From assembly GCA_965211635.1 (NCBI GenBank), contig OZ242948.1, positions 28,645 through 92,644 of the forward strand: DNA of 64,000 nucleotides, given 5' to 3'. The DNA is from Dehalococcoidia bacterium (lineage in GTDB: Bacteria; Chloroflexota; Dehalococcoidia; Bin125). Made by a program: the position numbers and the translations under genes. Shown in pieces: positions 15,916-30,300 of the stretch (positions are counted from its first letter, which is position 1; each line of letters begins with the position of its first letter). The notes under the pieces are model-generated. The model worked only from the letters and a program-made list of their open reading frames with translations, did not search any database and was not told where the DNA came from.

Positions 15916-16575
15916 ATGAAACAGCTCGCTCCCGACCTCTGGCAGACCTCAAGACGAATGCTTTTCGACGGTGTGTACTCACACGCCTACTTGCTCACCC
16001 GACCGCAAGGCAACCTGTTGATCTACAGCATCGGCGAGGATCAGCAGGAAGACCTGGATGCGATCGAGGAGCTGGGCGGCGTTGAAATGCAGGTCTTGAG
16101 CCACCGTGATGAGATCGGTCCTGCGCTCGGCCAGATCCGCGAGCGATTCGACTCGCGCCTCGGCTACCACGAGGCCGACGACCACGCGATCCGCGACACG
16201 GCCGCTGCCGATCTCTTCGTCGGCGCGGACTGCGCTGACCCGCAACTCGAGGGAATCGACGTGCTGCACACGCCCGGGCACACGCCTGGCAGCATCTGCC
16301 TGCGCTACGAGTCGCCGCACGGCCAGTCCTATCTCTTCACCGGCGACACGATCGTTCCCAACTCCGGCAGTTGGGCAACCGGTGTGTACGCAGAGATCGA
16401 GGGCGACGCCGCCGACCTGGTCGAGAGCCTGACGTGCCTCCGCGATCAGGCGGCCGATCTTGTAATCAGCAGCGCCCACGGCGGTGACAGTGGCTACGTC
16501 GAGGTCACGGCCGACGTCTGGCGCGAAGCAATCGATGGTCGGATTGAGAGCCTCAAGAGGCGTTTCAACTGCTGA
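15916..16575 (+). CDS. MBL-fold metallo-hydrolase
   Basis: 219 aa from the ATG at 15916 (the ORF track starts at TTG 15910). Contains LSHRDE...HTPGHTPGSICL...TGDT motifs. The 3' end overlaps the convergent vapC by 11 nt. Confidence 0.8.
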   Translation: MKQLAPDLWQTSRRMLFDGVYSHAYLLTRPQGNLLIYSIGEDQQEDLDAIEELGGVEMQVLSHRDEIGPALGQIRERFDSRLGYHEADDHAIRDTAAADLFVGADCADPQLEGIDVLHTPGHTPGSICLRYESPHGQSYLFTGDTIVPNSGSWATGVYAEIEGDAADLVESLTCLRDQAADLVISSAHGGDSGYVEVTADVWREAIDGRIESLKRRFNC

Positions 16576-16984
16576 CCGAACTGAATGGGTTGATGACCCG
16601 AAGACCGGCGTAGTCCTGCCGGTCGCTGAGGTCCTCGGAGTAGACGGCTTCACAGCCCATGGCTTGCGCAGCAGCAAGAATGGCGGCATCCCAGTAGGAA
16701 ATCTGGAAGCGCTGGCAGATGTCTACTGCCTCAAGGAAGAGCTCAGGGGTGATCGGTTGGACGGGCATTCCTGCGAGCTCGTCCAGAAAGTCCCGCGCCT
16801 GTTCGTGATTGAGCAGAATCGACCGAGATGGTCGAGTCGCCTGAAAGTAGAACTCCTGGAGGACCTGTACGGACAGGCACAGGTCGTCTCGCGTGAGGAG
16901 ATCGAGGGCAGTCTCCGTCTTCCGTTGCTCGGTGGGGTGCAGTGAAGCCGCGTACAGAAGTACGTTCGTGTCAACGAGACGCAT
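16565..16984 (-). CDS. vapC: type II toxin, PIN-domain ribonuclease VapC
   Basis: 139 aa from the internal ATG at 16984, beginning MRLVDTNVLLYA. The acidic PIN residues are intact (D5, E44 in VLQEF, D99 in YWDAAIL). The longer 219-aa ORF start lies inside the antitoxin gene. Confidence 0.85.
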   Translation of the reverse strand: MRLVDTNVLLYAASLHPTEQRKTETALDLLTRDDLCLSVQVLQEFYFQATRPSRSILLNHEQARDFLDELAGMPVQPITPELFLEAVDICQRFQISYWDAAILAAAQAMGCEAVYSEDLSDRQDYAGLRVINPFSSVSS

Positions 16985-17246
16985 GACGGTCGTACAGATC
17001 CTCGCGCGGCACGTTATCGGCCACCCGGAACCCCGGACTGGTACGGCGGATATCCTCCCGAACCTTGAGGATTCCGCGCATGCGACGCTGGGAGGCAGTC
17101 TCCTGACTCCGCATGTCACGACTCTCTGTGGTGAGCTCCTGCAAGTAATCGCGCACGAGGGCTGAGACGGACGTGTCCATCTCGGCCGCTCGGATCCGTG
17201 CCTGCCGGTAAGTCTCGTCATCAACGGAGACTGTGATGTTCCTCAT
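16971..17246 (-). CDS. type II antitoxin (VapB-like, ribbon-helix-helix-type N-terminus)
   Basis: 91 aa, MRNITVSVDDETYRQARIRAAEMDTSVSALVRDYLQEL. It overlaps the vapC start by 14 nt. Confidence 0.7.
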   Translation of the reverse strand: MRNITVSVDDETYRQARIRAAEMDTSVSALVRDYLQELTTESRDMRSQETASQRRMRGILKVREDIRRTSPGFRVADNVPREDLYDRHASR

Positions 17247-17433: not shown

Positions 17434-19104
17434 ATGTCCTCGAAACTCCAGGATTGGTTGGAGGGCCCGTACGCCAAGGCGACCGATCGCTTCCCTGAGC
17501 GGCGCGAGGCGTTCCGTCGTTCGTCCGGCGACCCGCTCGCGCCCATCTTTGTGAACGGCGACGACGATCCGCTGCCTGGCGAGTATCCCTACACCCGCGG
17601 CATCCAGCCGACCATGTACCGCGGCCGGCTCTGGACGATGCGCCAGTACGCCGGTCAGGAAGACGCCGAAGCCTCGAACCGGCGCTACCGATTCCTGCTT
17701 GACCAGGGTCAGACCGGACTCTCGGTCGCCTTCGACCTGCCTACGCAGATCGGCTACGACTCGGACGCGGCGATGGCCGAGGGCGAAGTCGGCAAGGTAG
17801 GGGTCGCGATCGACTCAATCGAGGACATGCGCACGCTGTTCGATCAGATCCCGCTTGATCGGGTCACGACATCGATGACGATCAACGCGACGGCGAACAT
17901 CCTGCTTTCGCTGTACGCCGCCGTGGCCGAGGAACAGGGAGTCGGCCGCGACAAGATCGGCGGTACCGTCCAGAACGACATCCTCAAGGAGTACGTCGCG
18001 CGCGGTACATACATCTATCCGCCGCAACCGTCGATGCGGCTGATCACGGACAGCTTCGACTACTGCACGCGCGAGGTTCCGCGCTGGAACACGATCTCGA
18101 TCTCCGGCTACCACATGCGCGAGGCGGGCTGTACGGCGGCGCAGGAAATCGGCTTCACGCTGGCCAATGCGATTGCCTACGTCGAGGCGGCGCTGGAGAA
18201 AGGCATGGCCTTCGACAGCTTCGGCCCGCGGCTCTCCTTCTTCTTCGCCTGTCACAGCAACTTCCTCGAAGAGGTGAGCAAGTTCCGCGCCGCGCGGCGG
18301 CTCTGGGCAAGCATCGCCCGCGAGCGTTTCGGCTCGGAGAATCAACGAGCGCAAATGCTGCGATTCCATACACAGACGGGCGGCGTCACGTTGACTGCGC
18401 AGCAGCCGGACAACAATGTGATACGCACCACGCTGCAGGCGCTCGCCGCCGTGCTGGGCGGCACGCAGTCGCTGCACACCAACTCGCTTGACGAGGCGCT
18501 GGGCCTGCCCTCGGAGCACGCCGTCGAGATCGCTCTGCGCACGCAGCAGGTGATCGGCTACGAGTCGGGCGTCGCTGACGTGATCGATCCGCTGGGCGGC
18601 TCCTACTACGTCGAGCAGACGACCGACGCGCTGGAAGCAGAGGCGCGCAACTACATCGACCAGATCGACGCGCTCGGCGGCGCCGTCTCGGCGATCGAGC
18701 AGGGGTATCAGCAAGCGGAAATCCTTGAGGCGTCCTCACAGTTCCAGCGAGAGGTGGAGACCGAGTCGGAAGCTGCTCGCGAAGGCGACCGCACCGCGGG
18801 CAAGCGCGGCCGCGTCATCGTCGGCGTCAACCGCTTCGAGACCGATGAAGACAGCGACGTCGAGATCGTCCGCGTCGACCCAAGCGTGCGCGAGCGGCAG
18901 ATCGAGAAGCTGGAGCGCCTGCGCGACGCACGCGACGCGAGCGCGGTCTCCGCCTCGCTGGACGCGATCCAGCAGGCGGCGTCAACGGACGAAAACCTGG
19001 TGCCGCTCATGCTCGATGCGGTGAAGCAGTCGGCGACCCTGGGCGAGATCTCCAATGCGCTGCGCGAGGTCTGGGGCGAGTACCGCGAGCGGATCGTCGT
19101 GTAG
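17434..19104 (+). CDS. methylmalonyl-CoA mutase family, large (catalytic TIM-barrel) subunit
   Basis: 556 aa. Contains [45 protein letters not shown] and [20 protein letters not shown]. There is no B12-binding domain, which is encoded separately at 22924. Confidence 0.9.
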
Positions 19105-19137
19105 CTGTCGATACAGCCGAAAGTTCGGGATGACGTC

Positions 19138-19677
19138 GTGCCCTTTGGACGCAGAGCATCAAGTCGCGGGAATCCCGGCGCGACCGGCAGTCAGTCGGAT
19201 CAGGACTGGTCGGACGCGCAGCGTCTGCGCTACTGGTGGCAAGCTGAGCGCAACCTGCTCCTAAAGTCGCTGGAAGCGGTCTCAGAGGACGCCGTCGACA
19301 CTCCCCTCGACGTTGGCGCCTGGACACCCAGGGGAATGGCCGCGCATCGCTTGTTCTGGGAAGCAGAAGAACGCGCCGCCATCGAAGAGCATCTGGGTGG
19401 CGTGTTTCCTTCGTTGCTCGACTTCCCTACCGACCGGATTGATTCGACCAACGCGGCCGCTGTTGAGTCGCTTGGCGAACGTCAGATGCCAGCACTGCTC
19501 CGAGCGCTGGCCGACTTGCGAACACGAACGGCCACATTGGTTGAGCGTGTCCAGGACGCCGATCTCAACGAACAGGGCAATCCCGCGCGCATCCTGCTAG
19601 GCGTCGCGCTGGAACACGACCGCGAGCATCGGAGAGCATTGGAAGCGCGATTCGGCGCGACGCGCAGCGACGATTGA
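19138..19677 (+). CDS. DinB-like four-helix-bundle protein
   Basis: AERNLLLKSLEAVSEDAVDTPLDVGAWTPRGMAAHRLFWE...LEHDREH resembles the DinB_2 family. The start codon is uncertain. Confidence 0.5.
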   Translation: MPFGRRASSRGNPGATGSQSDQDWSDAQRLRYWWQAERNLLLKSLEAVSEDAVDTPLDVGAWTPRGMAAHRLFWEAEERAAIEEHLGGVFPSLLDFPTDRIDSTNAAAVESLGERQMPALLRALADLRTRTATLVERVQDADLNEQGNPARILLGVALEHDREHRRALEARFGATRSDD

Positions 19678-19711
19678 TCTGAGCCGACCAGACGAGAGCG
19701 ATGGGAGCGAC

Positions 19712-20524
19712 ATGGCACTCACGAGGATTCACCACATCGGCATCGCGGTACACGACGTGGACAAGGCAGCCGAGCTGTGGCGCGATACCTTCGGTCTCGA
19801 AACCGCGATCGACATGGAGATTGAGTCGCAGGGCGTGCGAGGCGTGATCTTTCCGCTCGACAACTGCGAGATCGAGCTGCTTGAGCCAACCCGCGACGAC
19901 ACCGGTTTTGCGCGGAATCTGGAATCGCACGGCGAAGGGTTCCACCACATCTGCTTGGAGTCGACCGATGTCGCCGGCGACCTGATCGCCGCCAAGGCGA
20001 GCGGGATGCAGATGATCGACGAAGAGCCGCGCGAGGGCTTGGCCGGCATGATCGGCTTCATTCACCCGCGATCCAATCACGGCGTGCTGATCGAGTACGC
20101 TCAGCCGCCCGACCACACGCCGCACCATTCGGGTCCTACTTCGGGTCCGGGGCCGCACGCGATGCACCACGTGACGGTGGCCGTGAATGAGATCGCCCCC
20201 GTGCGGGACAAGTGGACAGAGCGCTACGGCATGGTCGGCCGCGAGCCGTTTCAGGCCGAGGCGCTGGGTCTGGAGGGTCAGTTCCTCGACCTTGGACCAA
20301 CCGCGATCGAGTTGGTACGCCCGCTGCCGGACAGCGAGGGTCCGTTGCCGCGCAAGCTGGAGCGGGGCGAGGGCATGTTCATGATGGCGCTGACGGTGCG
20401 CGACGCGGAGAAGTCCGTGACCTACCTGCGCGACCAGGGCATGACCGTCACCGACGCCAACACAGGAGCCTTCATCTCCCCGCGCAACACGAACCGAGCC
20501 CGCCTCCGCCTGTCGGAGGCGTAA
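19712..20524 (+). CDS. methylmalonyl-CoA epimerase with duplicated VOC domain
   Basis: 270 aa. Domain 1 reads IHHIGIAVHDVDKAAELWRDTFGLE...GFHHICLE...IHPRSNHGVLIEYAQ. Domain 2 reads MHHVTVAVNEIAPVRDKWTERYGMV...MALTVRDAEKSVTYL. Confidence 0.8.
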   Translation: MALTRIHHIGIAVHDVDKAAELWRDTFGLETAIDMEIESQGVRGVIFPLDNCEIELLEPTRDDTGFARNLESHGEGFHHICLESTDVAGDLIAAKASGMQMIDEEPREGLAGMIGFIHPRSNHGVLIEYAQPPDHTPHHSGPTSGPGPHAMHHVTVAVNEIAPVRDKWTERYGMVGREPFQAEALGLEGQFLDLGPTAIELVRPLPDSEGPLPRKLERGEGMFMMALTVRDAEKSVTYLRDQGMTVTDANTGAFISPRNTNRARLRLSEA

Positions 20525-20541
20525 GTGCATTGGTTGGTCGC

Positions 20542-22798
20542 CTAGCCAAACTGCGCTTGCACGAACACGGCCGCCTCTTGCGCGGATAGCTCACGAGTTG
20601 AGTGTCCTGTGCGCACGTACAAGCGGCCGTGCTTATCGAAGATGGGCTTGTTTGAGGGATCACAGCGCACCGCCAAGACGCGCTTCGCCCCGAAGTCCTC
20701 AAAGTTGGCATGGACATTCGCCCAAATCACGGCGCTCAGCCGGTCGTTTAGGAGGTTGGTCAAGTGGAGGTTCATCTTGTCTTCGGACTCAAACTCGTCG
20801 TGCTCGATTCCAATCGGGGTGCCATCATCCTGGACCCCGATCACTAGTGAACCCCCCTTCAGGTTGAGGAAGCCAGCAACGGTCTTGACGATCGCGTCTT
20901 CCATTCGTGCGTCCTTCGACCCGTTGTGCAGGTTCATTCGCAGCGTGGACTTGAACTCCACATCGTCGCTCTCGCCACCGGCGATCAACGCGGAGATGTC
21001 AAGCGCCGCGGGACTAGCAGCGACACTGGGTTGCTGTAAGCCAATCCGCTCGAATCCGAGCCTGATCAGCTCGGCCATACGTTGACGCCGCTCCCTTAGG
21101 AAATCCTCGTAGGCCATGGTTTGCCAGCCTGCGGGCAGGGCGTGAAGCTCGTACATTTTCTCAATCGAGGCATCCGAGTGCCCGGACTCTCTCATTGCTC
21201 TGTCGAACGCCGGCAAGTACTCCTCGGGGGATCTCGCGCCAATCTTGAGATTGTCTGTCCACTCGACATAGGCGTAGTTGGCTATCTGGTTCGTCGCGGT
21301 GCGGGCCGTCACGCCTTGCTTGGCCAGATACGCCTTCGAAAAGATGATGCCGCTCGATCGACTTGGCCGGATTGACGAACGGATCGAACCAGTCTGAGAT
21401 GTTCGTATCGGAGAAGAGGACTGGCGCCTGCAGCAGCACTTGGGCAGCGTGATAGGCCGTCAGTGACGGGCTTCGTGCCGTGGACGTCGCAAGCTCGTTG
21501 GGAAGCGTGACAGACCAGAAGTCACTGGTCAGGGCGATGTCACAGGCGCTCTGAAGTGTGGCCAAGAAGCTCGCGGCAGTGTCGGCGGAGCGGATCATTG
21601 CCAAGTCGGACTCCATCGCCGACTCTGGCGAGCCGGTATAGCGCCCCGTTAGCGAGGACATGAAGAACCACTGTGCAATGGCCGTCCGGAGTGGTTTCGC
21701 TTGGACCTTCAGCTCCGTGCGACCGATCAGGTACAGCGTGTACGCGAAGAACAGGGCAGTCTCGGAGTTGACCATTCGCCTGTTCCGGTAGCCCGCCCGG
21801 GTCAGACATTGAAGGAAGTCATGCCAATGGGTGAGATTGAGAGCCCTCTCTTGCGCAGCCTGCAGTCGTTTGAACTGCTGATTGCGGAGATCGTCCGAGA
21901 ACTCCCCGGTGTCCGGATCTTTGCCTCGCAGGATCGAATAGACGTACTCCAGGCGAGCGCGGCGGAAGGCGAGACCCACTCCCACTCGCAGAAGGCGATC
22001 TGGCGTTGGCTCGATGAAGTGATTGAACGGGGAAGATTCTGTGGCGTCGGGCAGTTTCGAGCGCCGCGCAAACTCTTCGAGCGCGGTTCGTCCTTCGTCC
22101 CAGAAGACAGACATCAGAGTAAGGATGAAGTCGGCCTGATTGAGAGGCTTGCCCTTGCTGTTGATTCTGACGAAGACTTCTGCCACATGTTCCTCTTCGA
22201 CGTGGCTGGCGAGTTGCAGAGCCGTAACTGGGAAGTTCGAGAGGCCTTGCAGCCTTCCTAGCGCCTCCTCTACCGCCTCTCTCTCAGCGTCGGCCACGGA
22301 GCGAGCGCTCTCAAGGCGGGCAATGAAGCCACTAAAGGTGGCGATCAGATTCCGTTTGCCGCTCAGTAGTGGAGTGATGTCGGGAACAAACGAGCGGTCG
22401 TTATTCGTCGCGGCGCTGGCGACGTCGAAGCGGCCGTTCAAGGGGTTGAATGCGATGCGGATCCGTTCGCGCGAGAAGTCACTGCGAACCACCTCCTCAC
22501 CGGTGAAGACCGCAAACAGCGAGGTCAAGCGTTGCTGGCCATCGACGATCACCAGCGACGGGGCGACTTGTTTCTGCTCGCCGCCGATAGTGCGGTGGGT
22601 CGGTTCGACTCCTGTCTGCCAAAGCAAGAGGTAGCCGACGGGATAGCCTCTATACATCGAGTCCAGCAAATCGCGCACTTTGACGTTATTCCAGACGAAG
22701 GGCCGCTGGATGTCCGGAAGGCCGATGTGACCAGTTTTGATCTGCTCGAGTAGTCCGTTGAGAGTAAAGGTCACTTGCTGGAATACCGTTTGGTCCAT
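20542..22798 (-). pseudogene. frameshifted DUF262 (ParB/GmrSD-like) + HNH-like + AlbA_2 domain gene (about 750 aa if repaired)
   Basis: The likely start is ATG 22798 (MDQTVFQQ). DUF262 motifs are GLPDIQRPFVWN and VIVDGQQRLTSL. The frame breaks at the A4/T4 run 21338-21343: ...SIERHHLF reads in one frame and SKAYLAKQGVTARTATNQIANYAYVEWTDNLKIG in the next (ORF 20542-21312). The C-terminal AlbA_2-like segment is ESDDVEFKS...VAGFLNLKGGSLVIGVQDDGTPIGI. Confidence 0.75.
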
Positions 22799-22923
22799 TG
22801 GGCTTGCCTTACCAAGATGCTGATTCGCGATTCGATCCCGGCAGAGTCTATTGCCATAGTCGGGCAATCCTGTCGGTCGGACCCTCTAAGCTGGTGCCAA
22901 TCCACACTGGGTAAGGTGATGTG

Positions 22924-23349
22924 ATGACTGAGACCGCTGTTGACCAGATCCGCGTGCTGGTGGCGAAGCCGGGGCTGGATGGGCATGACCGGGGGGCGAA
23001 GATTGTCGCCCGGGCGCTGCGCGATGCGGGGATGGAAGTGATCTACACCGGCATCCGCCAGACGCCCGACATGATCGCCGAGGCGGCGCTGCAAGAGGAT
23101 GTGCACGTAGTGGCGCTGTCGGTGCTCTCCGGCGCGCACCTGGAGCTGTTTCCGCGCGTCGTCGATGCCTGCGGGCAGCGCGGGATTACGCCCGACAACA
23201 CGCTGTTCCTCGGCGGCGGCATCATTCCCGACGAGGACGCCGACGTGCTTAAGCAAGCCGGATTCTCGGCGATCTTCGGTCCCGGCGCGCACACCGGCGA
23301 CATCGCGGAGTTCGTGCGCGCCCAGGTGCCCGAACTCGACCGCTCGTGA
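22924..23349 (+). CDS. methylmalonyl-CoA mutase, small cobalamin-binding subunit
   Basis: [35 protein letters not shown] contains the DxHxxG B12-binding motif. AAGGTG lies 5 nt upstream of the ATG at 22924. The ORF track starts at GTG 22921. Confidence 0.9.
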
Positions 23350-24323
23350 CCACTGAAGCGGCAGCAGCTCCGCACACCGTATCAGCCGGAAGACTGGCCG
23401 AGCTGGAGGCGCGGCTGCTGTCCGGTGATCGACGCGCCTTGTCCCGCGTCCTGAGCTGGGTCGAGAGCGGCGACGAGCGAGGACGCGCGATGCTCCGCGC
23501 GCTCTATCCGCGCAGCGGCCGGGCGCGCACCATTGGCCTGACCGGCTCGCCCGGCGCGGGCAAGAGCACCGTCACCAATGAACTGGCCAAGTCGTTCCGC
23601 GCTCGAGGCCAGACCGTCGGCATAGTCGCCATCGACCCGTCGTCTCCTTACACGATGGGCGCGATCCTTGGCGATCGCGTACGCATGACCGAGCTCTACT
23701 CGGACGAAGGCGTGTTCATCCGCTCGCTCGCGTCGCGCGGGGCGTTGGGCGGACTCTCGGCGGCGACGCAAGATGTGGTCCACGTGCTCGACGCCTACGG
23801 CAAGGACGTGATCCTGATCGAGACCGTCGGCGCGGGACAGGACGAAGTCGACATCGCCGGCGCGGCGCAGACCACGATCCTGGTCAACACGCCCAACATG
23901 GGCGACGAGGTGCAGACGCTCAAGGCCGGCATCATGGAGATCGCCGACGTGCTCGCGGTCAACAAGTCCGACCTGCCCGGCGCCGACCGGATGGTCTCGG
24001 CGCTCAAGGCGCTGCTCTCGCTCAACCCCGATCGGGGGTGGGATCCTCCGGTCGTGCGAGTTGTCGGCACGAAAGGCGAGGGCATCGACAAGCTGACCGA
24101 GGCGTGCGACGCGCACTTCGAGGAGCTGCAGGCGTCGGGAAAGCTGGAGACAGCCGAATTGGAACGGGCGCGACAGCAAATCACCGCACTGGCACGGGCG
24201 AACGTGCTGAATTCGCTGCGCACCGAGTCGGGAGAGTTGCGCCTGGCCGAACTCACACAGGCAGTGGCCAACCGAACATCGGACCCGCACGCCGCCGCTG
24301 AAGCCTGGCTGGCGGAGTCGTGA
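23346..24323 (+). CDS. meaB: methylmalonyl-CoA mutase-associated GTPase MeaB (ArgK)
   Basis: 325 aa. The P-loop is [12 protein letters not shown], followed by ETVGAGQ and NKSD motifs. The GTGA start overlaps the preceding stop. Confidence 0.9.
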
Positions 24324-27694: not shown

Positions 27695-27829
27695 GGAGAG
27701 CGGAAGTCCAGTGTGCTTGGGGAGCCCCCCCAAGTCCGGACTCGCGCTGTGTTGACGCCTTCGGGCGGAGGGACGGCGGCGAAGTCCGAACAATCTCTAC
27801 CTTTGCAGCCGGCTGAGACCGGCTGATCC

Positions 27830-29329
<1,500 letters not shown>

Positions 29330-29578
29330 TAGGGAGAACTCCCCGCATCCCATGCGGGGTACGCCAACCGGCGATCCCATCGCCGATTGAGCTCCCAGGT
29401 CGATCCGCCAGTCCTCGTTCACTCGAGGACGCTTCAACGCCAACGCCCCTAACCCGGGTCGCGGCCGCGAGGTCAACGGCGTGTCCGGCTCCTCGATTGC
29501 ATTGGCTTCCGCTCTCCAACGGTTAAGGCCGCTCGCCGCCCTCAACATCAACGGGGCGGCGATGCCGTTATCTCTCCC

Positions 29579-29655
29579 GGGCCATTAGCTCAGCAGGTTA
29601 GAGCGCAGTCCTGATAAGACTGAGGTCCCTGGTTCGAGTCCAGGATGGCCCACCA
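29579..29655 (+). tRNA. tRNA-Ile (anticodon GAT)
   Basis: GGGCCATTAGCTCAGCAGGTTAGAGCGCAGTCCTGATAAGACTGAGGTCCCTGGTTCGAGTCCAGGATGGCCCACCA. The anticodon loop is CTGATAA. Confidence 0.93.
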
Positions 29656-29659
29656 GGGA

Positions 29660-30150
29660 CTCTCGGCCCGCCTGGGCTGCGGCGGAGCAGTGCCGGAAAG
29701 CTGGGCTGATTGGAGTCCCGTTCAAAAGCGGACGCTTCGCTGATGCCGATCTTTTCCATGACGATGAAGCCTGCGCGGTCCGTGAGACTCCAGCGCCGAC
29801 CCTCGCGAGCTGCAAACTGTCGCGCTCATATGCGGGACTGCGTAAGCTTCTGCCGAGCCAAGTTCATTCACTCGTTCGCCTAAAGCTCAGCAAGCATCTC
29901 GCTGACCATCCGGCGATCTCAAACTCCGGTGCTCGCCGTGTGGCTGAGCACCTCCATGAAGAACATCTGCATCGGCACGACAAGCGGCTGTGCTCGCAGG
30001 GTCACGAGCAGAGCATGATGGTTCGTCAACCCGCTCATCAACAAGCGCTATCCAACAGCCCGCGTCAACCGATTGGGCCCGCGCCAAACCCGCTCCTCCT
30101 CCTCGCTGGGATGCCCGCTGAGGAAGCGAAGAGTCGCCGGATACTGAACA
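29660..30150 (-). pseudogene. decayed PIN-domain (VapC-like) gene remnant
   Basis: Four colinear minus-strand fragments in different frames, separated by stops. They read ..ATLRFLSGHPSEEEERVW.., ..ALLVTLRAQPLVVPMQMFFMEVLS.. and ..ARQFAAREGRRWSLTDRAGFIVMEKIGISEASAFERD... The last resembles the sLtDa.sFavMe+lGi.eA.aFDrdF C-terminus of VapC toxins. Confidence 0.35.
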
Positions 30151-30179
30151 GCTTGGGGTTGCGTGATAGGATTCTCGGT

Positions 30180-30300
30180 GAGCTGGTGATTGGAGCGCGG
30201 TGGCACCACCCGTTCCCATCCCGAACACGGAAGTGAAACGCCGCAGCGCCGACGATACTGGGGGGGCAACCCCTTGCGGAAAATAGGCCATTGCCAGCTC
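30180..30300 (+). rRNA. rrf: 5S ribosomal RNA
   Basis: The 11-bp helix I pairs gagctggtgat with attgccagctc. The conserved core is CCACCCGTTCCCATCCCGAACACGGAAGTGAAACGCCGCAGCGCCGA(C)GATACT. Length is 121 nt. Confidence 0.9.

What the first reader, a model, noticed from the sequence alone, without database searches (positions are those of the whole stretch)
20542..22867. Frameshifted DUF262 (ParB/GmrSD-like) + HNH-like + AlbA_2 (Schlafen-type) fusion gene inserted antisense inside the methylmalonyl-CoA mutase cluster
The mutase large subunit (17434-19104), epimerase (19712-20524), B12-binding subunit (22924-23349) and MeaB (23346-24323) are all on the + strand. The only minus-strand DNA between them is this 2.3-kb unit, which ends 17 bp from the epimerase stop.

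- **N-terminus:** it carries the DUF262 signatures GLPDIQRPFVWN and VIVDGQQRLTSL.
- **Frameshift:** at the A4/T4 run 21338-21343 the reading frame breaks inside ...SIERHH-LF | SKAYLAKQGVTARTATNQIANYAYVEWTDNLKIG..P.EY. This is an H-H...N...N nuclease-type motif that closes many DUF262 proteins. Translation continues in the +1 frame as ORF 20542-21312.
- **C-terminus:** the last ~130 aa look like an AlbA_2 domain (ESDDVEFKS...IVKTVAGFLNLKGGSLVIGVQDDGTPIGI).

DUF262-plus-nuclease proteins such as GmrSD, BrxU and SspE are modification-sensing restriction or defence effectors. I know of no described member that carries a C-terminal AlbA_2 module.

Hand-counted 60-nt lines inside the gene run about 52-68% GC, against about 60-73% in the flanks. 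This hints at foreign origin but needs proper calculation.

The best reading is a horizontally acquired single-gene defence candidate of unusual architecture, possibly inactivated exactly in its catalytic motif.
Basis: partly seen in the sequence, partly recalled or inferred. Interest (0 to 1): 0.7.

Follow-up and report, generated by a model that had tools for sequence, protein, structure and literature searches.

The report
Broken DUF262–Schlafen phage-defence gene
This is one copy, broken by a 2-base deletion, of a widespread and already described single-gene phage-defence protein (a BrxU/GmrSD-like DNA-sensing enzyme fused to a Schlafen RNase), and it sits in a variable slot inside the methylmalonyl-CoA mutase operon of a sponge-type Dehalococcoidia bacterium.

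Summary
A single minus-strand gene (20542-22798) lies between the epimerase and the B12-binding subunit. It carries a DUF262/GmrSD_N domain (E 1.5e-29), a His-Me-type motif and a C-terminal SLFN_AlbA_2 domain (E 1e-18). A frameshift breaks it inside ERHHLF|PKAYL.

The interpretation needs correction on several points.
- **Architecture:** it is not unusual. All 120 best database hits are intact proteins of about 750 aa with both domains. DUF262-Schlafen fusions were described in 2025-26, and EcoSlfn7 gave a roughly 540-fold drop against T7.
- **Lesion:** it is a net 2-nt loss (TTC CCG to TTC G) that removes the invariant Pro488 codon. Nine orthologues in the same slot are intact, with dN/dS 0.05-0.10. 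The break is therefore very recent or an assembly error.
- **Age of the insertion:** the gene is accessory but not a recent import. Among 39 informative related species, the slot is empty in 27, holds this gene in 5 and holds other cargo in 7.
- **Exchange:** orthologues are 73-90% identical, their tree disagrees with the host tree, one allele is a mosaic, and GC3 is native-like. Together these point to long residence with exchange by recombination.

Verdict: a new, probably dead, member of a known kind. Interest is modest.

The parts
20542..22798 (-). Whole DUF262-HisMe-Schlafen gene. It would encode 752 aa if repaired and is disrupted by a 2-nt deletion.
   Evidence: ORFs. Repaired translation aligns end to end (100% coverage, 73-90% identity) with intact 752-759 aa orthologues.
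22121..22759 (-). DUF262 / GmrSD_N (ParB-like NTPase) domain, aa 14-226. Motifs: QR (aa 31-32), RDLLDS (aa 42-47), DGQQR (22529-22543), FVRIN (22160-22174).
   Evidence: PF03235 E 1.5e-29. Motifs are invariant in A1/A4. BrxU 7p9k profile hit E 5e-14. Coordinates verified.
21356..22120 (-). Alpha-helical linker region, about aa 227-481.
   Evidence: The AF2 model of orthologue P0001 is almost entirely helical across aa 221-471. The Foldseek alignment to BrxU spans 670 columns.
21250..21355 (-). His-Me-finger-like nuclease motif: ERHHLF (21338-21355), lost Pro488, N508 (21277-21279), N517 (21250-21252).
   Evidence: E482, H484, H485, P488, N504-Y509, E513, W514, D516 and N517 are invariant in 31 homologues. 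Predicted strand 481-485, strand 509-513 and helix 517-520. PF07510 itself does not hit.
21337..21338 (-). Site of the frameshift: a net 2-nt loss (TTC CCG -> TTC G) that removes the Pro488 codon and creates TTCGAA.
   Evidence: DNA alignment with L001 and L004. All intact relatives read ERHHLFPKA.
21161..21337 (-). Out-of-frame 58-codon tail of the N-terminal ORF, ending at a stop at 21161-21163.
20587..20973 (-). Schlafen / AlbA_2 RNase-type domain (aa 610-738) with the Ex4ExK motif ESDDVEFK at 20950-20973 and D658 at 20827-20829.
   Evidence: PF04326 E 1.1e-18, profile 1-117/118. E610, E615, K617 and D658 are invariant. Fold matches to 3lmm, SAMD9 and SLFN5/11/12/13/14. The motif is defined in PMC13056530.
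22799..22920 (.). 122-bp divergent intergenic region between the defence gene and the B12-binding subunit gene. It has conserved blocks (CAGCTTAGA, AATAGACT) that are candidate -10-like elements for the two directions.
   Evidence: Alignment of nine loci. The region is absent from empty-slot genomes. The promoter role is inference; the sigma-70 consensus scan found none.
20525..20541 (.). 17-nt spacer between the convergent stop codons of the epimerase and the defence gene; left edge of the insertion.
17434..20524 (+). Upstream half of the mcm cluster: mutase large subunit (17434-19104), DinB_2 protein (19138-19677), glyoxalase-type epimerase (19712-20524).
   Evidence: Pfam. Same order in all 40+ related loci.
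22921..24323 (+). Downstream half of the mcm cluster: B12-binding subunit (22921-23349) and MeaB (23346-24323).
   Evidence: Pfam. Synteny.

Best explanation
The locus is one gene for a three-module, single-polypeptide anti-phage protein of the DUF262-Schlafen class (the class of EcoSlfn7).

**Architecture.** The first ~590 residues form a BrxU/GmrSD-like body: a ParB-like DUF262 NTPase domain, a long helical linker and a divergent His-Me-finger nuclease. The last ~150 residues are a Schlafen (AlbA_2) RNase domain carrying the catalytic Ex4ExK motif.

**Inferred mechanism, by analogy with BrxU/GmrSD/SspE and with pSlfn5/SLFN11.** The DUF262 domain binds and hydrolyses NTP and reads a feature of invading DNA, most likely a base modification. 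This licenses the His-Me nuclease to cut that DNA. It also licenses, or is backed up by, the Schlafen domain, which cleaves tRNA and shuts down translation. Because the catalytic motifs of all three modules are invariant across the family, I infer a dual-effector enzyme (DNase plus RNase) rather than a pure sensor fused to an RNase.

**Genomic setting.** In this sponge-type Dehalococcoidia clade the gene is accessory. It occupies a fixed, polymorphic slot between the epimerase and the B12-binding subunit of the mcm operon. It brings its own 122-bp divergent intergenic region. It is exchanged between lineages by homologous recombination through the conserved flanks.

**State in this genome.** A 2-nt deletion at 21337/21338 removes the invariant Pro488 codon. 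It separates the catalytic His (N-terminal ORF) from the two Asn residues and the Schlafen domain. If the deletion is real, this copy is a very young pseudogene.
For: **Shown: identity and architecture**
- Domains: PF03235 E 1.5e-29 and PF04326 E 1e-18.
- PADLOC HEC-05 (= BrxU, per bioRxiv 10.1101/2024.01.29.577857) E 3e-30.
- PDB profile hit to BrxU 7p9k, E 5e-14.
- AF2 model (pLDDT 76.8) matches BrxU over 670 columns, E 4e-11. Its C-terminus matches 3lmm, SAMD9 and SLFN5/11/12/13/14.
- Motifs QR, DGQQR, FxxxN, HH..P..N..N and Ex4ExK are invariant in 31 homologues of 55-90% identity.
- The class has been published and validated: DUF262 fusions are 1.8% of 5,930 pSlfns, EcoSlfn7 gives a 538-fold EOP drop on T7, and Ex4(E/D)xK is catalytic (PMC13056530).

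**Shown: the gene is functional in relatives**
- Nine orthologues are intact as single HSPs covering aa 1-752.
- dN/dS is 0.05-0.10 in every domain.

**Shown: accessory gene in a variable slot**
- Among 39 informative species, the slot is empty in 27, holds this gene in 5 and holds other cargo in 7.
- Carriers are scattered across the host tree.

**Shown: exchange between lineages**
- L024 and L027 are 98.1% identical in host proteins (flank dS 0.19-0.44) but 73.5% identical in this protein (dS 1.9).
- L009 is a mosaic: aa 1-500 are WIN-type (~90%) and aa 501-752 are L027-type (~88%).
- Distant homologues (57-59% identity) lie in unrelated contexts.

**Shown: the lesion**
- DNA alignment.
- It is the only real gene split between frames in the ~21 kb comparable with relatives.
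Against: - No experiment exists on this protein or on any close relative.
- The EcoSlfn7 sequence could not be obtained. Class membership therefore rests on domain composition and motifs, not on measured similarity to the tested protein.
- Pfam GmrSD_C (PF07510) hits none of the 31 family members. It hits only sub-threshold (E 0.03-0.14) in 4 of 10 Slfn-less relatives. The His-Me assignment therefore rests on motif, predicted secondary structure and whole-chain fold similarity.
- No defence genes flank the gene in this window, and the other cargo found in the slot is not defence-like.
- The published paper treats fused domains as probable sensors. The dual-effector reading is my inference.
- Whether the deletion is real cannot be decided. 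The truncated 545-aa product is on record from a single 3.1-Mb contig, and the metagenome scans found nothing.
Confidence: 0.8

Rival explanations
1. The gene is intact in the organism, and the 2-nt deletion is an assembly or consensus error in a short C/T-rich stretch. GmrSD itself was first reported as two genes and later shown to be one.
For: - There are no other lesions. Both halves stay 83-93% identical to the nearest orthologue, and dN/dS of the post-frameshift part (0.09) equals that of intact pairs.
- The truncated product is seen on only one contig.
- All nine orthologues are intact.
- The GmrS/GmrD precedent is described in bioRxiv 10.1101/2024.01.29.577857.
Against: - A loss of two bases from a 3-base run is not the usual one-base homopolymer error.
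- No other real gene in the ~21 kb comparable with relatives is frameshifted, so the assembly does not look error-prone.
- Accessory defence genes are often inactivated in nature (general knowledge).
Confidence: 0.38
2. One reading: a recently and horizontally acquired foreign single-gene island of unusual architecture.
For: - It is the lowest-GC 2.26-kb stretch of the window.
- It lies antisense inside an otherwise co-directional operon.
- The slot is empty in most relatives.
Against: - The same gene occupies the same slot and orientation in nine other loci at 73-90% identity, with dS 0.75-1.9.
- GC3 is within 1 sd of native genes, and orthologues show the same 3-4 point GC offset.
- No integrase, repeats or att-like sites lie at the edges.
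- The architecture is common and has been published.
Confidence: 0.07
3. The two ORFs form a working split system: a DUF262 sensor protein plus a separate Schlafen protein started at GTG 21312, comparable to the two-protein TgvAB. Alternatively, they are joined by programmed frameshifting.
For: - Two-protein GmrSD-like systems exist (TgvAB; bioRxiv 10.1101/2024.04.04.588119).
- The downstream frame is open and has a GTG start.
- The Schlafen domain is undamaged.
Against: - The break falls inside the invariant HHLFP motif. It separates the catalytic His from N508 and N517 and deletes the invariant Pro.
- No relative is split.
- No convincing ribosome-binding site precedes GTG 21312 (by eye).
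- No slippery-site logic would restore Pro488.
Confidence: 0.04
4. The protein has a housekeeping or regulatory role tied to the mcm operon, for example a DndB-like DUF262 regulator or a nucleoid protein, rather than a role in defence.
For: - The position inside the operon is fixed and shared in several species.
- The gene is under strong purifying selection.
Against: - It is absent from 34 of 39 informative related species that keep the operon.
- Homologues of 57-59% identity lie in unrelated neighbourhoods.
- Nuclease and RNase catalytic motifs are invariant.
- A member of the class has been shown to defend.
Confidence: 0.03

Closest known systems
Prokaryotic Schlafen defence proteins, DUF262-Slfn class (EcoSlfn7 of E. 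coli UC4224; Perez Taboada et al., Nat Microbiol 2026, PMC13056530)
   Same: - One polypeptide combines a DUF262 domain with a full-length PF04326 Schlafen domain carrying the Ex4(E/D)xK motif.
- It is a single-gene system.
- The class has been shown to reduce plating of T7 and other phages.
   Different: - This copy comes from a Dehalococcoidia sponge-type symbiont, not Enterobacterales.
- Similarity to EcoSlfn7 itself was not measured.
- This copy is frameshifted.
- It sits in a metabolic operon rather than a defence island.
- The mechanism of this class has not been dissected in the paper, which concentrates on pSlfn5.
BrxU (= PADLOC HEC-05), GmrSD-family type IV restriction enzyme, PDB 7P9K
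   Same: - It has an N-terminal DUF262 with QR, RxLxDS-like, DGQQR and FxxxN motifs.
- A long helical linker follows, then a C-terminal His-Me-type nuclease region.
- It gives the best sequence-profile hit (E 5e-14) and the best fold hit (E 4e-11, 670 columns).
   Different: - BrxU has no Schlafen domain and is about 590 aa.
- BrxU's nuclease motif is DHIYP; here it is HHLFP, and the Pfam DUF1524 model does not match.
- BrxU is embedded in BREX, Hma or type I RM loci, and none is present here.
- Identity is only about 18% in the structural alignment.
Eco94GmrSD / EcoCT GmrSD and SspE (DUF262 + DUF1524 enzymes)
   Same: - The logic is the same: an NTP-dependent DUF262 sensor controls a His-Me nuclease that acts on non-self DNA (glc-hmC DNA for GmrSD; phosphorothioate sensing for SspE).
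- GmrSD was once mis-annotated as two genes.
   Different: - PADLOC SspE matches are weak (E 2e-05 at best).
- No dnd or ssp genes are nearby.
- The extra Schlafen module is absent from these enzymes.
Eukaryotic Schlafen and SAMD9 tRNases (SLFN11/12/13/14, SAMD9 AlbA_2 domain)
   Same: - The fold of the C-terminal domain matches.
- The ExxxxExK catalytic segment aligns with SLFN12.
- The general logic is shared: a nucleic-acid sensor is coupled to a tRNA-cleaving effector.
   Different: - Eukaryotic proteins pair two lobes and carry a helicase or other large sensor domains.
- Here there is a single AlbA_2 lobe attached to a GmrSD body.
- Sequence-level E-values are not significant (0.3-0.5).

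Membership tests
GmrSD-family type IV restriction enzymes (DUF262 - helical linker - DUF1524) | N-terminal DUF262/GmrSD_N domain above the Pfam gathering score | tested here: met
   PF03235, 104 bits against a cutoff of 33.2, E 1.5e-29. All 31 homologues match.
GmrSD-family type IV restriction enzymes (DUF262 - helical linker - DUF1524) | DUF262 motifs QR, DGQQR and FxxxN (as listed in bioRxiv 10.1101/2024.04.04.588119) | tested here: met
   DIQRPF (aa 29-34), VDGQQR (aa 85-90) and FVRIN (aa 209-213) are all invariant in A1/A4.
GmrSD-family type IV restriction enzymes (DUF262 - helical linker - DUF1524) | Alpha-helical linker between the two domains | tested here: met
   The AF2 model of P0001 has helices spanning aa 221-471. 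The fold alignment to BrxU covers 670 columns.
GmrSD-family type IV restriction enzymes (DUF262 - helical linker - DUF1524) | C-terminal DUF1524/GmrSD_C domain recognised by its HMM | tested here: not met
   PF07510 gives no hit at E<=5 in the repaired protein or in any of 31 homologues. Only sub-threshold hits (E 0.03-0.14) appear in 4 of 10 Slfn-less relatives, at the matching position.
GmrSD-family type IV restriction enzymes (DUF262 - helical linker - DUF1524) | His-Me finger: catalytic His at the end of strand beta-1, Asn in the loop, Asn in the helix | tested here: inconclusive
   H485 ends the predicted strand 481-485, N508 precedes strand 509-513, and N517 starts helix 517-520. All three are invariant. 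This is a motif and predicted-structure argument only. In the window the motif is split by the frameshift.
GmrSD-family type IV restriction enzymes (DUF262 - helical linker - DUF1524) | NTP-dependent cleavage of modified DNA | not testable with these tools
   Needs biochemistry.
Prokaryotic Schlafen (pSlfn) defence proteins, DUF262-Slfn class | Full-length Slfn domain (PF04326, >100 aa), the selection rule of PMC13056530 | tested here: met
   PF04326, 68 bits against a cutoff of 25.3, covering profile positions 1-117 of 118 over aa 610-738.
Prokaryotic Schlafen (pSlfn) defence proteins, DUF262-Slfn class | Catalytic Ex4(E/D)xK motif | tested here: met
   ESDDVEFK at 20950-20973. E610, E615 and K617 are invariant in 31 homologues.
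Prokaryotic Schlafen (pSlfn) defence proteins, DUF262-Slfn class | Fusion to a DUF262 domain in the same polypeptide | tested here: met
   Met in all intact orthologues. In the window it is met only after repairing the 2-nt deletion.
Prokaryotic Schlafen (pSlfn) defence proteins, DUF262-Slfn class | Sequence similarity to the tested member EcoSlfn7 | not tested
   The sequence or accession is not in the held text, and no supplements are held. The E. coli collection cannot be searched with a protein.
Prokaryotic Schlafen (pSlfn) defence proteins, DUF262-Slfn class | Anti-phage activity that depends on the Slfn active site | not testable with these tools
   Needs plaque assays with E610A/E615A mutants.
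BrxU / HEC-05 (defence genes embedded in BREX, Hma or type I RM loci) | Embedded within a BREX, Hma or type I RM locus | tested here: not met
   The neighbours are mcm-operon genes. No RM or BREX genes appear in the flanks of ten orthologous loci.
BrxU / HEC-05 (defence genes embedded in BREX, Hma or type I RM loci) | Full-length match to the HEC-05 HMM | tested here: inconclusive
   PDLC04151 scores E 2e-33, but the best stretch covers only aa 8-111 (profile 23-143 of 600), with three stretches in all.

The most novel reading that the evidence does not exclude
The most novel reading concerns the setting rather than the protein. In these sponge-associated Dehalococcoidia, the gap between the epimerase and the B12-subunit genes of an essential-looking metabolic operon acts as a recombination-driven cargo slot.
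- Deeply diverged, mosaic alleles of a three-activity defence enzyme (NTPase, DNase, tRNase) are swapped between species through the conserved flanks.
- They alternate in that slot with unrelated secreted-protein cargo.
- Each insertion brings the promoter that now drives the downstream half of the operon.

A sub-reading is that the DUF262-Slfn class is a true dual-effector enzyme that cuts both DNA and tRNA, rather than a sensor fused to an RNase.
Probability: 0.3. Interest if true: 0.5.

Novelty: new member of a known kind. Interest (0 to 1): 0.3.

Why it matters
- **Annotation:** the two ORFs should be merged into one disrupted gene and named as a GmrSD/BrxU-like DUF262-Schlafen defence protein rather than 'DUF262 domain-containing protein'.
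- **Biology of the class:** the family alignment shows that the NTPase, His-Me and Schlafen catalytic motifs are all invariant over 55-90% identity. This gives a concrete, testable prediction that these proteins use two nucleases. The published work on the class has not addressed that.
- **Symbiont genomics:** the mcm-operon slot shows presence/absence polymorphism, allele replacement (dS 1.9 against 0.2-0.4 in the flanks) and a mosaic allele. It is a compact example of how uncultured sponge symbionts turn over defence genes without obvious mobile-element machinery.

None of this is a surprise to specialists.

Tried and rejected
- **Pfam DUF1524 (PF07510).** No hit on the repaired protein, on 31 homologues or, above threshold, on 10 Slfn-less relatives. 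The nuclease domain cannot be filed under that HMM.
- **NCBIfam.** No family matched.
- **EcoSlfn7 for direct comparison.** No supplements are held for either version of the paper, and the E. coli collection has no protein mode.
- **Independent evidence for the deletion.** Two metagenome-contig scans used patterns that accept either the deleted or the intact form. Both returned nothing, so they are uninformative. The exact look-up found the truncated 545-aa product on a single 3.1-Mb contig only.
- **Promoter and terminator scan of 20300-23100.** No sigma-70 consensus sites, and one terminator-like site, which is fewer than the shuffled expectation.
- **A second frameshift near 27.9-28.3 kb and another near 10.0 kb.** These were rejected. 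The regions are the 16S rRNA gene and tRNA genes, where spurious ORFs align.
- **The slot as a dedicated defence hotspot.** Rejected. The other cargo is large secreted repeat proteins and arylsulfotransferase-like paralogues by eye, not defence genes. Those proteins were not scanned against Pfam or PADLOC.
- **Plasmid and phage collections.** Only distant homologues (<=41% identity) turned up, mostly lacking the Slfn domain. Nothing there informs the origin of this copy.
- **Composition as evidence of foreign origin.** Rejected after the GC3 calculation.
Full report
**1. What is in the sequence**

Two overlapping minus-strand ORFs, 21161-22867 (568 aa) and 20542-21312 (256 aa), lie between plus-strand genes. 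Those genes are the methylmalonyl-CoA mutase large subunit (17434-19104), a DinB_2 protein (19138-19677), a double-glyoxalase epimerase (19712-20524), the B12-binding subunit (22921-23349) and MeaB (23346-24323).

- The N-terminal ORF carries GmrSD_N/DUF262 (PF03235, E 1.5e-29).
- The C-terminal frame carries SLFN_AlbA_2 (PF04326, E 1.1e-18, profile 1-117 of 118).
- The real start is the ATG at 22798, because every orthologue begins MDQTVFQQ.
- The stop (20542-20544) lies 17 nt from the epimerase stop.

**2. The lesion**

All intact relatives read ...SIERHHLFPKAYLAK... across the junction.

- At the DNA level relatives have CAT CAT CTG TTC CCG AAG GCG. The window has CAT CAT CTT TTC G AAG GCG.
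- This is a net loss of two bases from the CCC run at 21337/21338, next to a synonymous CTG>CTT change. It deletes the invariant Pro488 codon and shifts the frame.
- The upstream product keeps E482, H484 and H485 and then runs 58 codons out of frame.
- N508, N517 and the whole Schlafen domain lie in the downstream frame.

There is no other damage.

- Both halves are 83-93% identical to the nearest orthologue.
- dN/dS of the window copy against relatives is 0.05-0.09 before the break and 0.08-0.11 after it. Intact pairs give the same values.
- Among the genes in the ~21 kb that can be compared with close relatives, this is the only real gene split between frames. Two other flagged spots are the 16S rRNA and tRNA genes.
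- The truncated 545-aa product is on record from a single 3.1-Mb contig.
- Two scans of metagenome contigs, for either form of this allele, found nothing.

The break is therefore either very recent or an assembly error. I put the odds at roughly 60:40 in favour of real. A two-base loss in a three-base run is not a typical consensus error, and the surrounding assembly looks clean. GmrSD itself was once mis-described as two genes, which argues for caution.

**3. What the protein is**

The repaired 752-aa sequence finds thousands of homologues.

- All 120 best hits are 741-782 aa, cover 99-100% of the query and carry both Pfam domains. Where named at all, they are called 'DUF262 domain-containing protein' from Chloroflexi or Dehalococcoidia MAGs.
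- An exhaustive search of 1.84 billion cluster representatives gives 640 hits at E<=1e-30 and 5,389 at E<=1e-10.
- The top hits fall into two groups. Some align over residues 1-750. Others align only over about 1-590 and are ~590 aa long, or carry other N- or C-terminal extensions. Plasmid-borne homologues show the same pattern.
- So there is a modular GmrSD-like core, and the Schlafen domain is one of several add-ons.

The core resembles BrxU.

- PADLOC gives HEC-05 at E 3e-30. HEC-05 is BrxU (bioRxiv 10.1101/2024.01.29.577857).
- A family profile hits BrxU 7P9K at E 5e-14.
- An AlphaFold2 model of the 90%-identical orthologue P0001 (mean pLDDT 76.8) matches BrxU over 670 alignment columns at E 4e-11.
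- The family keeps QR, RDL[LF]DS (compare RLFDS of BrxU), DGQQR and FxxxN invariant.

The nuclease region is divergent.

- Pfam GmrSD_C/DUF1524 hits none of 31 members.
- It gives only sub-threshold hits (E 0.03-0.14) in 4 of 10 Slfn-less relatives, at the equivalent position.
- Even so, E482, H484, H485, P488, N504-Y509, E513, W514, D516 and N517 are invariant.
- The model places H485 at the end of a strand, N508 before the next strand and N517 at the start of a helix. That is the His-Me pattern described for TgvB and BrxU.

The C-terminal domain is Schlafen-type.

- It matches 3LMM, the SAMD9 AlbA_2 domain and SLFN5/11/12/13/14.
- It carries ESDDVEFK, which fits the catalytic Ex4(E/D)xK motif of Schlafen RNases. 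E610, E615, K617 and D658 are invariant.

**4. It is a known kind**

Perez Taboada et al. (bioRxiv July 2025; Nat Microbiol 2026; PMC13056530) catalogued 5,930 prokaryotic Schlafen proteins in 55 domain compositions.

- DUF262 fusions make up 1.8% of them.
- Their mechanistic work on pSlfn5 shows trigger-activated, Mn2+-dependent cleavage of tRNA anticodon arms that depends on the Ex4DxK residues.
- A 2026 NAR survey describes GmrSD as ParB+HNH and Schlafen RNases as backup 'suicidal' effectors around BREX.

I could not obtain the EcoSlfn7 sequence. Membership in that class rests on the paper's own criteria, namely a full-length PF04326 domain, the motif and a fused DUF262. It does not rest on measured similarity.

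**5. How it most likely works**

*Shown:*
- Domain identities and motif conservation.
- Strong purifying selection in every module.
- Defence by a member of the class (literature).

*Inferred, by analogy with BrxU, GmrSD and SspE:*
- In those enzymes DUF262 binds and hydrolyses nucleotide and reads DNA modification to control the nuclease.
- By analogy, the N-terminal body senses invading DNA, probably modified DNA, and cuts it with the His-Me domain.
- The Schlafen domain would cleave tRNA, either in parallel or as a fallback, arresting translation.
- Because all three catalytic centres are invariant across 55-90% identity, I favour a dual-effector enzyme over a pure 'sensor + RNase'. This is a prediction, not a result.

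**6. Genomic setting**

A scan of one genome per species with the neighbouring MeaB returned 41 close loci, all Dehalococcoidia or Chloroflexota MAGs. Many come from sponge-derived bins and complete chromosomes. The first orthologue is from a sponge metagenome.

Slot contents among the 39 informative loci:

| Slot content | Loci |
|---|---|
| Epimerase directly followed by the B12 subunit (gap about 40-170 bp) | 27 |
| This gene, intact, same orientation | 5 |
| 0.8-6.2 kb of other cargo | 7 |

- Four further carriers came from exact-protein look-ups.
- The other cargo is large secreted repeat proteins and paralogous secreted enzymes, not defence genes.
- Carriers are scattered over a host tree built from mutase+MeaB+B12. 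Several have empty-slot sister taxa.

The gene tree conflicts with the host tree.

- L024 and L027 are 98.1% identical in host proteins. Their flanking genes differ at dS 0.19-0.44. Their defence proteins are only 73.5% identical, at dS 1.9.
- The window's closest allele (L001, 90%) belongs to a more distant host than L009 (host 94.5%, allele 81.5%).
- L009 is a mosaic. Residues 1-500 are of the window/L001 type (~90%) and residues 501-752 are of the L027/L007 type (~88%). The switch comes just after the His-Me motif.
- Homologues of 57-59% identity in other Chloroflexi lie in unrelated neighbourhoods, one of them next to a recombinase and a large helicase.
- No integrase or repeats mark the edges. 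Even the first codons of the B12 gene differ between filled and empty sites, as expected if exchange runs through the conserved flanks.

This makes it a long-resident accessory gene in a variable slot, moved around within the clade by homologous recombination. It is not a recent foreign import.

- Overall GC is the lowest in the window (58.8% against 63.6%). Orthologues show the same 3-4 point offset.
- GC3 (0.73) is within one sd of native genes (0.77 +/- 0.06). The deficit sits at second codon positions.

The insertion splits what is a contiguous operon in empty-slot genomes.

- It brings a 122-bp divergent intergenic region with conserved blocks (CAGCTTAGA, AATAGACT).
- These blocks probably hold the promoters for the defence gene and for B12/MeaB. 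This is inference, since the consensus scan found no sigma-70 site.

**7. Verdict**

- It is wrong about rarity and recency.
- The locus is a new, probably inactivated, member of a known and experimentally supported defence class.
- Interest is modest. The protein class has been published, this copy is broken or mis-assembled, and the added value is population-genomic (slot polymorphism, allele replacement, mosaicism) plus a testable dual-nuclease prediction.

Noticed in passing
window 27828-30299: 16S rRNA (27828-29328), a tRNA (29579-29652) and 5S rRNA (30182-30299) lie together on the + strand. No 23S rRNA hit occurs anywhere in the 64-kb window, which suggests an unlinked or rearranged rRNA operon.
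   Followed up: no
window 16565-17246 (minus strand): A PIN-domain toxin-like ORF (16565-17224) overlaps a small upstream ORF (16971-17246) immediately upstream of the mutase gene, which looks like a VapBC-type pair. L001 has a PIN gene at the same place. L004 has a PIN/AF2212-like pair inserted between the defence gene and the epimerase.
   Followed up: partly
L008 6369-9473; L026 7765-9303; L041 7511-9484; L047 7409-9544: In these relatives the same epimerase-to-B12 slot holds large secreted proteins. They share an N-terminal 'ATVRISAKRL..GRTE(F/Y)GLQ' module followed by repeats: 'GSGLPxxTFDLTGMFDTPxQxNIDxCGNY' units, or RCC1-like 'GAVECWG..SSPPSGRFVQVSAG' units in L047. Function is unknown.
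   Followed up: no
L045 1716-4889 (minus strand): A 1057-aa protein made of many S1-like repeats ends in a Schlafen/AlbA_2 domain (GGESQSLEFKASLR...). It lies between the mutase and the epimerase, where other genomes have the DinB gene. This is a second, different Slfn fusion in the same operon.
   Followed up: no
L045 5902-7695; L046 3367-9472: One to three tandem paralogues of a secreted ~570-745 aa protein (arylsulfotransferase-like by eye, not scanned) fill the slot in the more distant relatives.
   Followed up: no
L001 10277-11090: In this sponge-metagenome contig the epimerase gene, not the defence gene, is split into three called ORFs and two tblastn frames. It may be another frameshift or an assembly error at this locus.
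   Followed up: no
L009 7200-9455 (minus strand): The defence gene of L009 is a recombinant. Residues 1-500 match the window/L001 allele (~90%) and residues 501-752 match the L027/L007 allele (~88%). The most variable part of the family is residues 488-600, between the His-Me core and the Schlafen domain.
   Followed up: yes
window 21335-21340: The 2-nt deletion creates the palindrome TTCGAA at the break. This is probably coincidence.
   Followed up: no
window 19138-19677: A DinB_2-family gene sits between the mutase and the epimerase. It is conserved there in nearly all 40+ related loci, which is an unusual constant member of an mcm cluster.
   Followed up: no
window 22840-22872: An inverted repeat, ATTGCC-N7-GGCAAT, lies in the divergent intergenic region next to the conserved AATAGACT block. 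It is only partly conserved in L009 and could be an operator.
   Followed up: no
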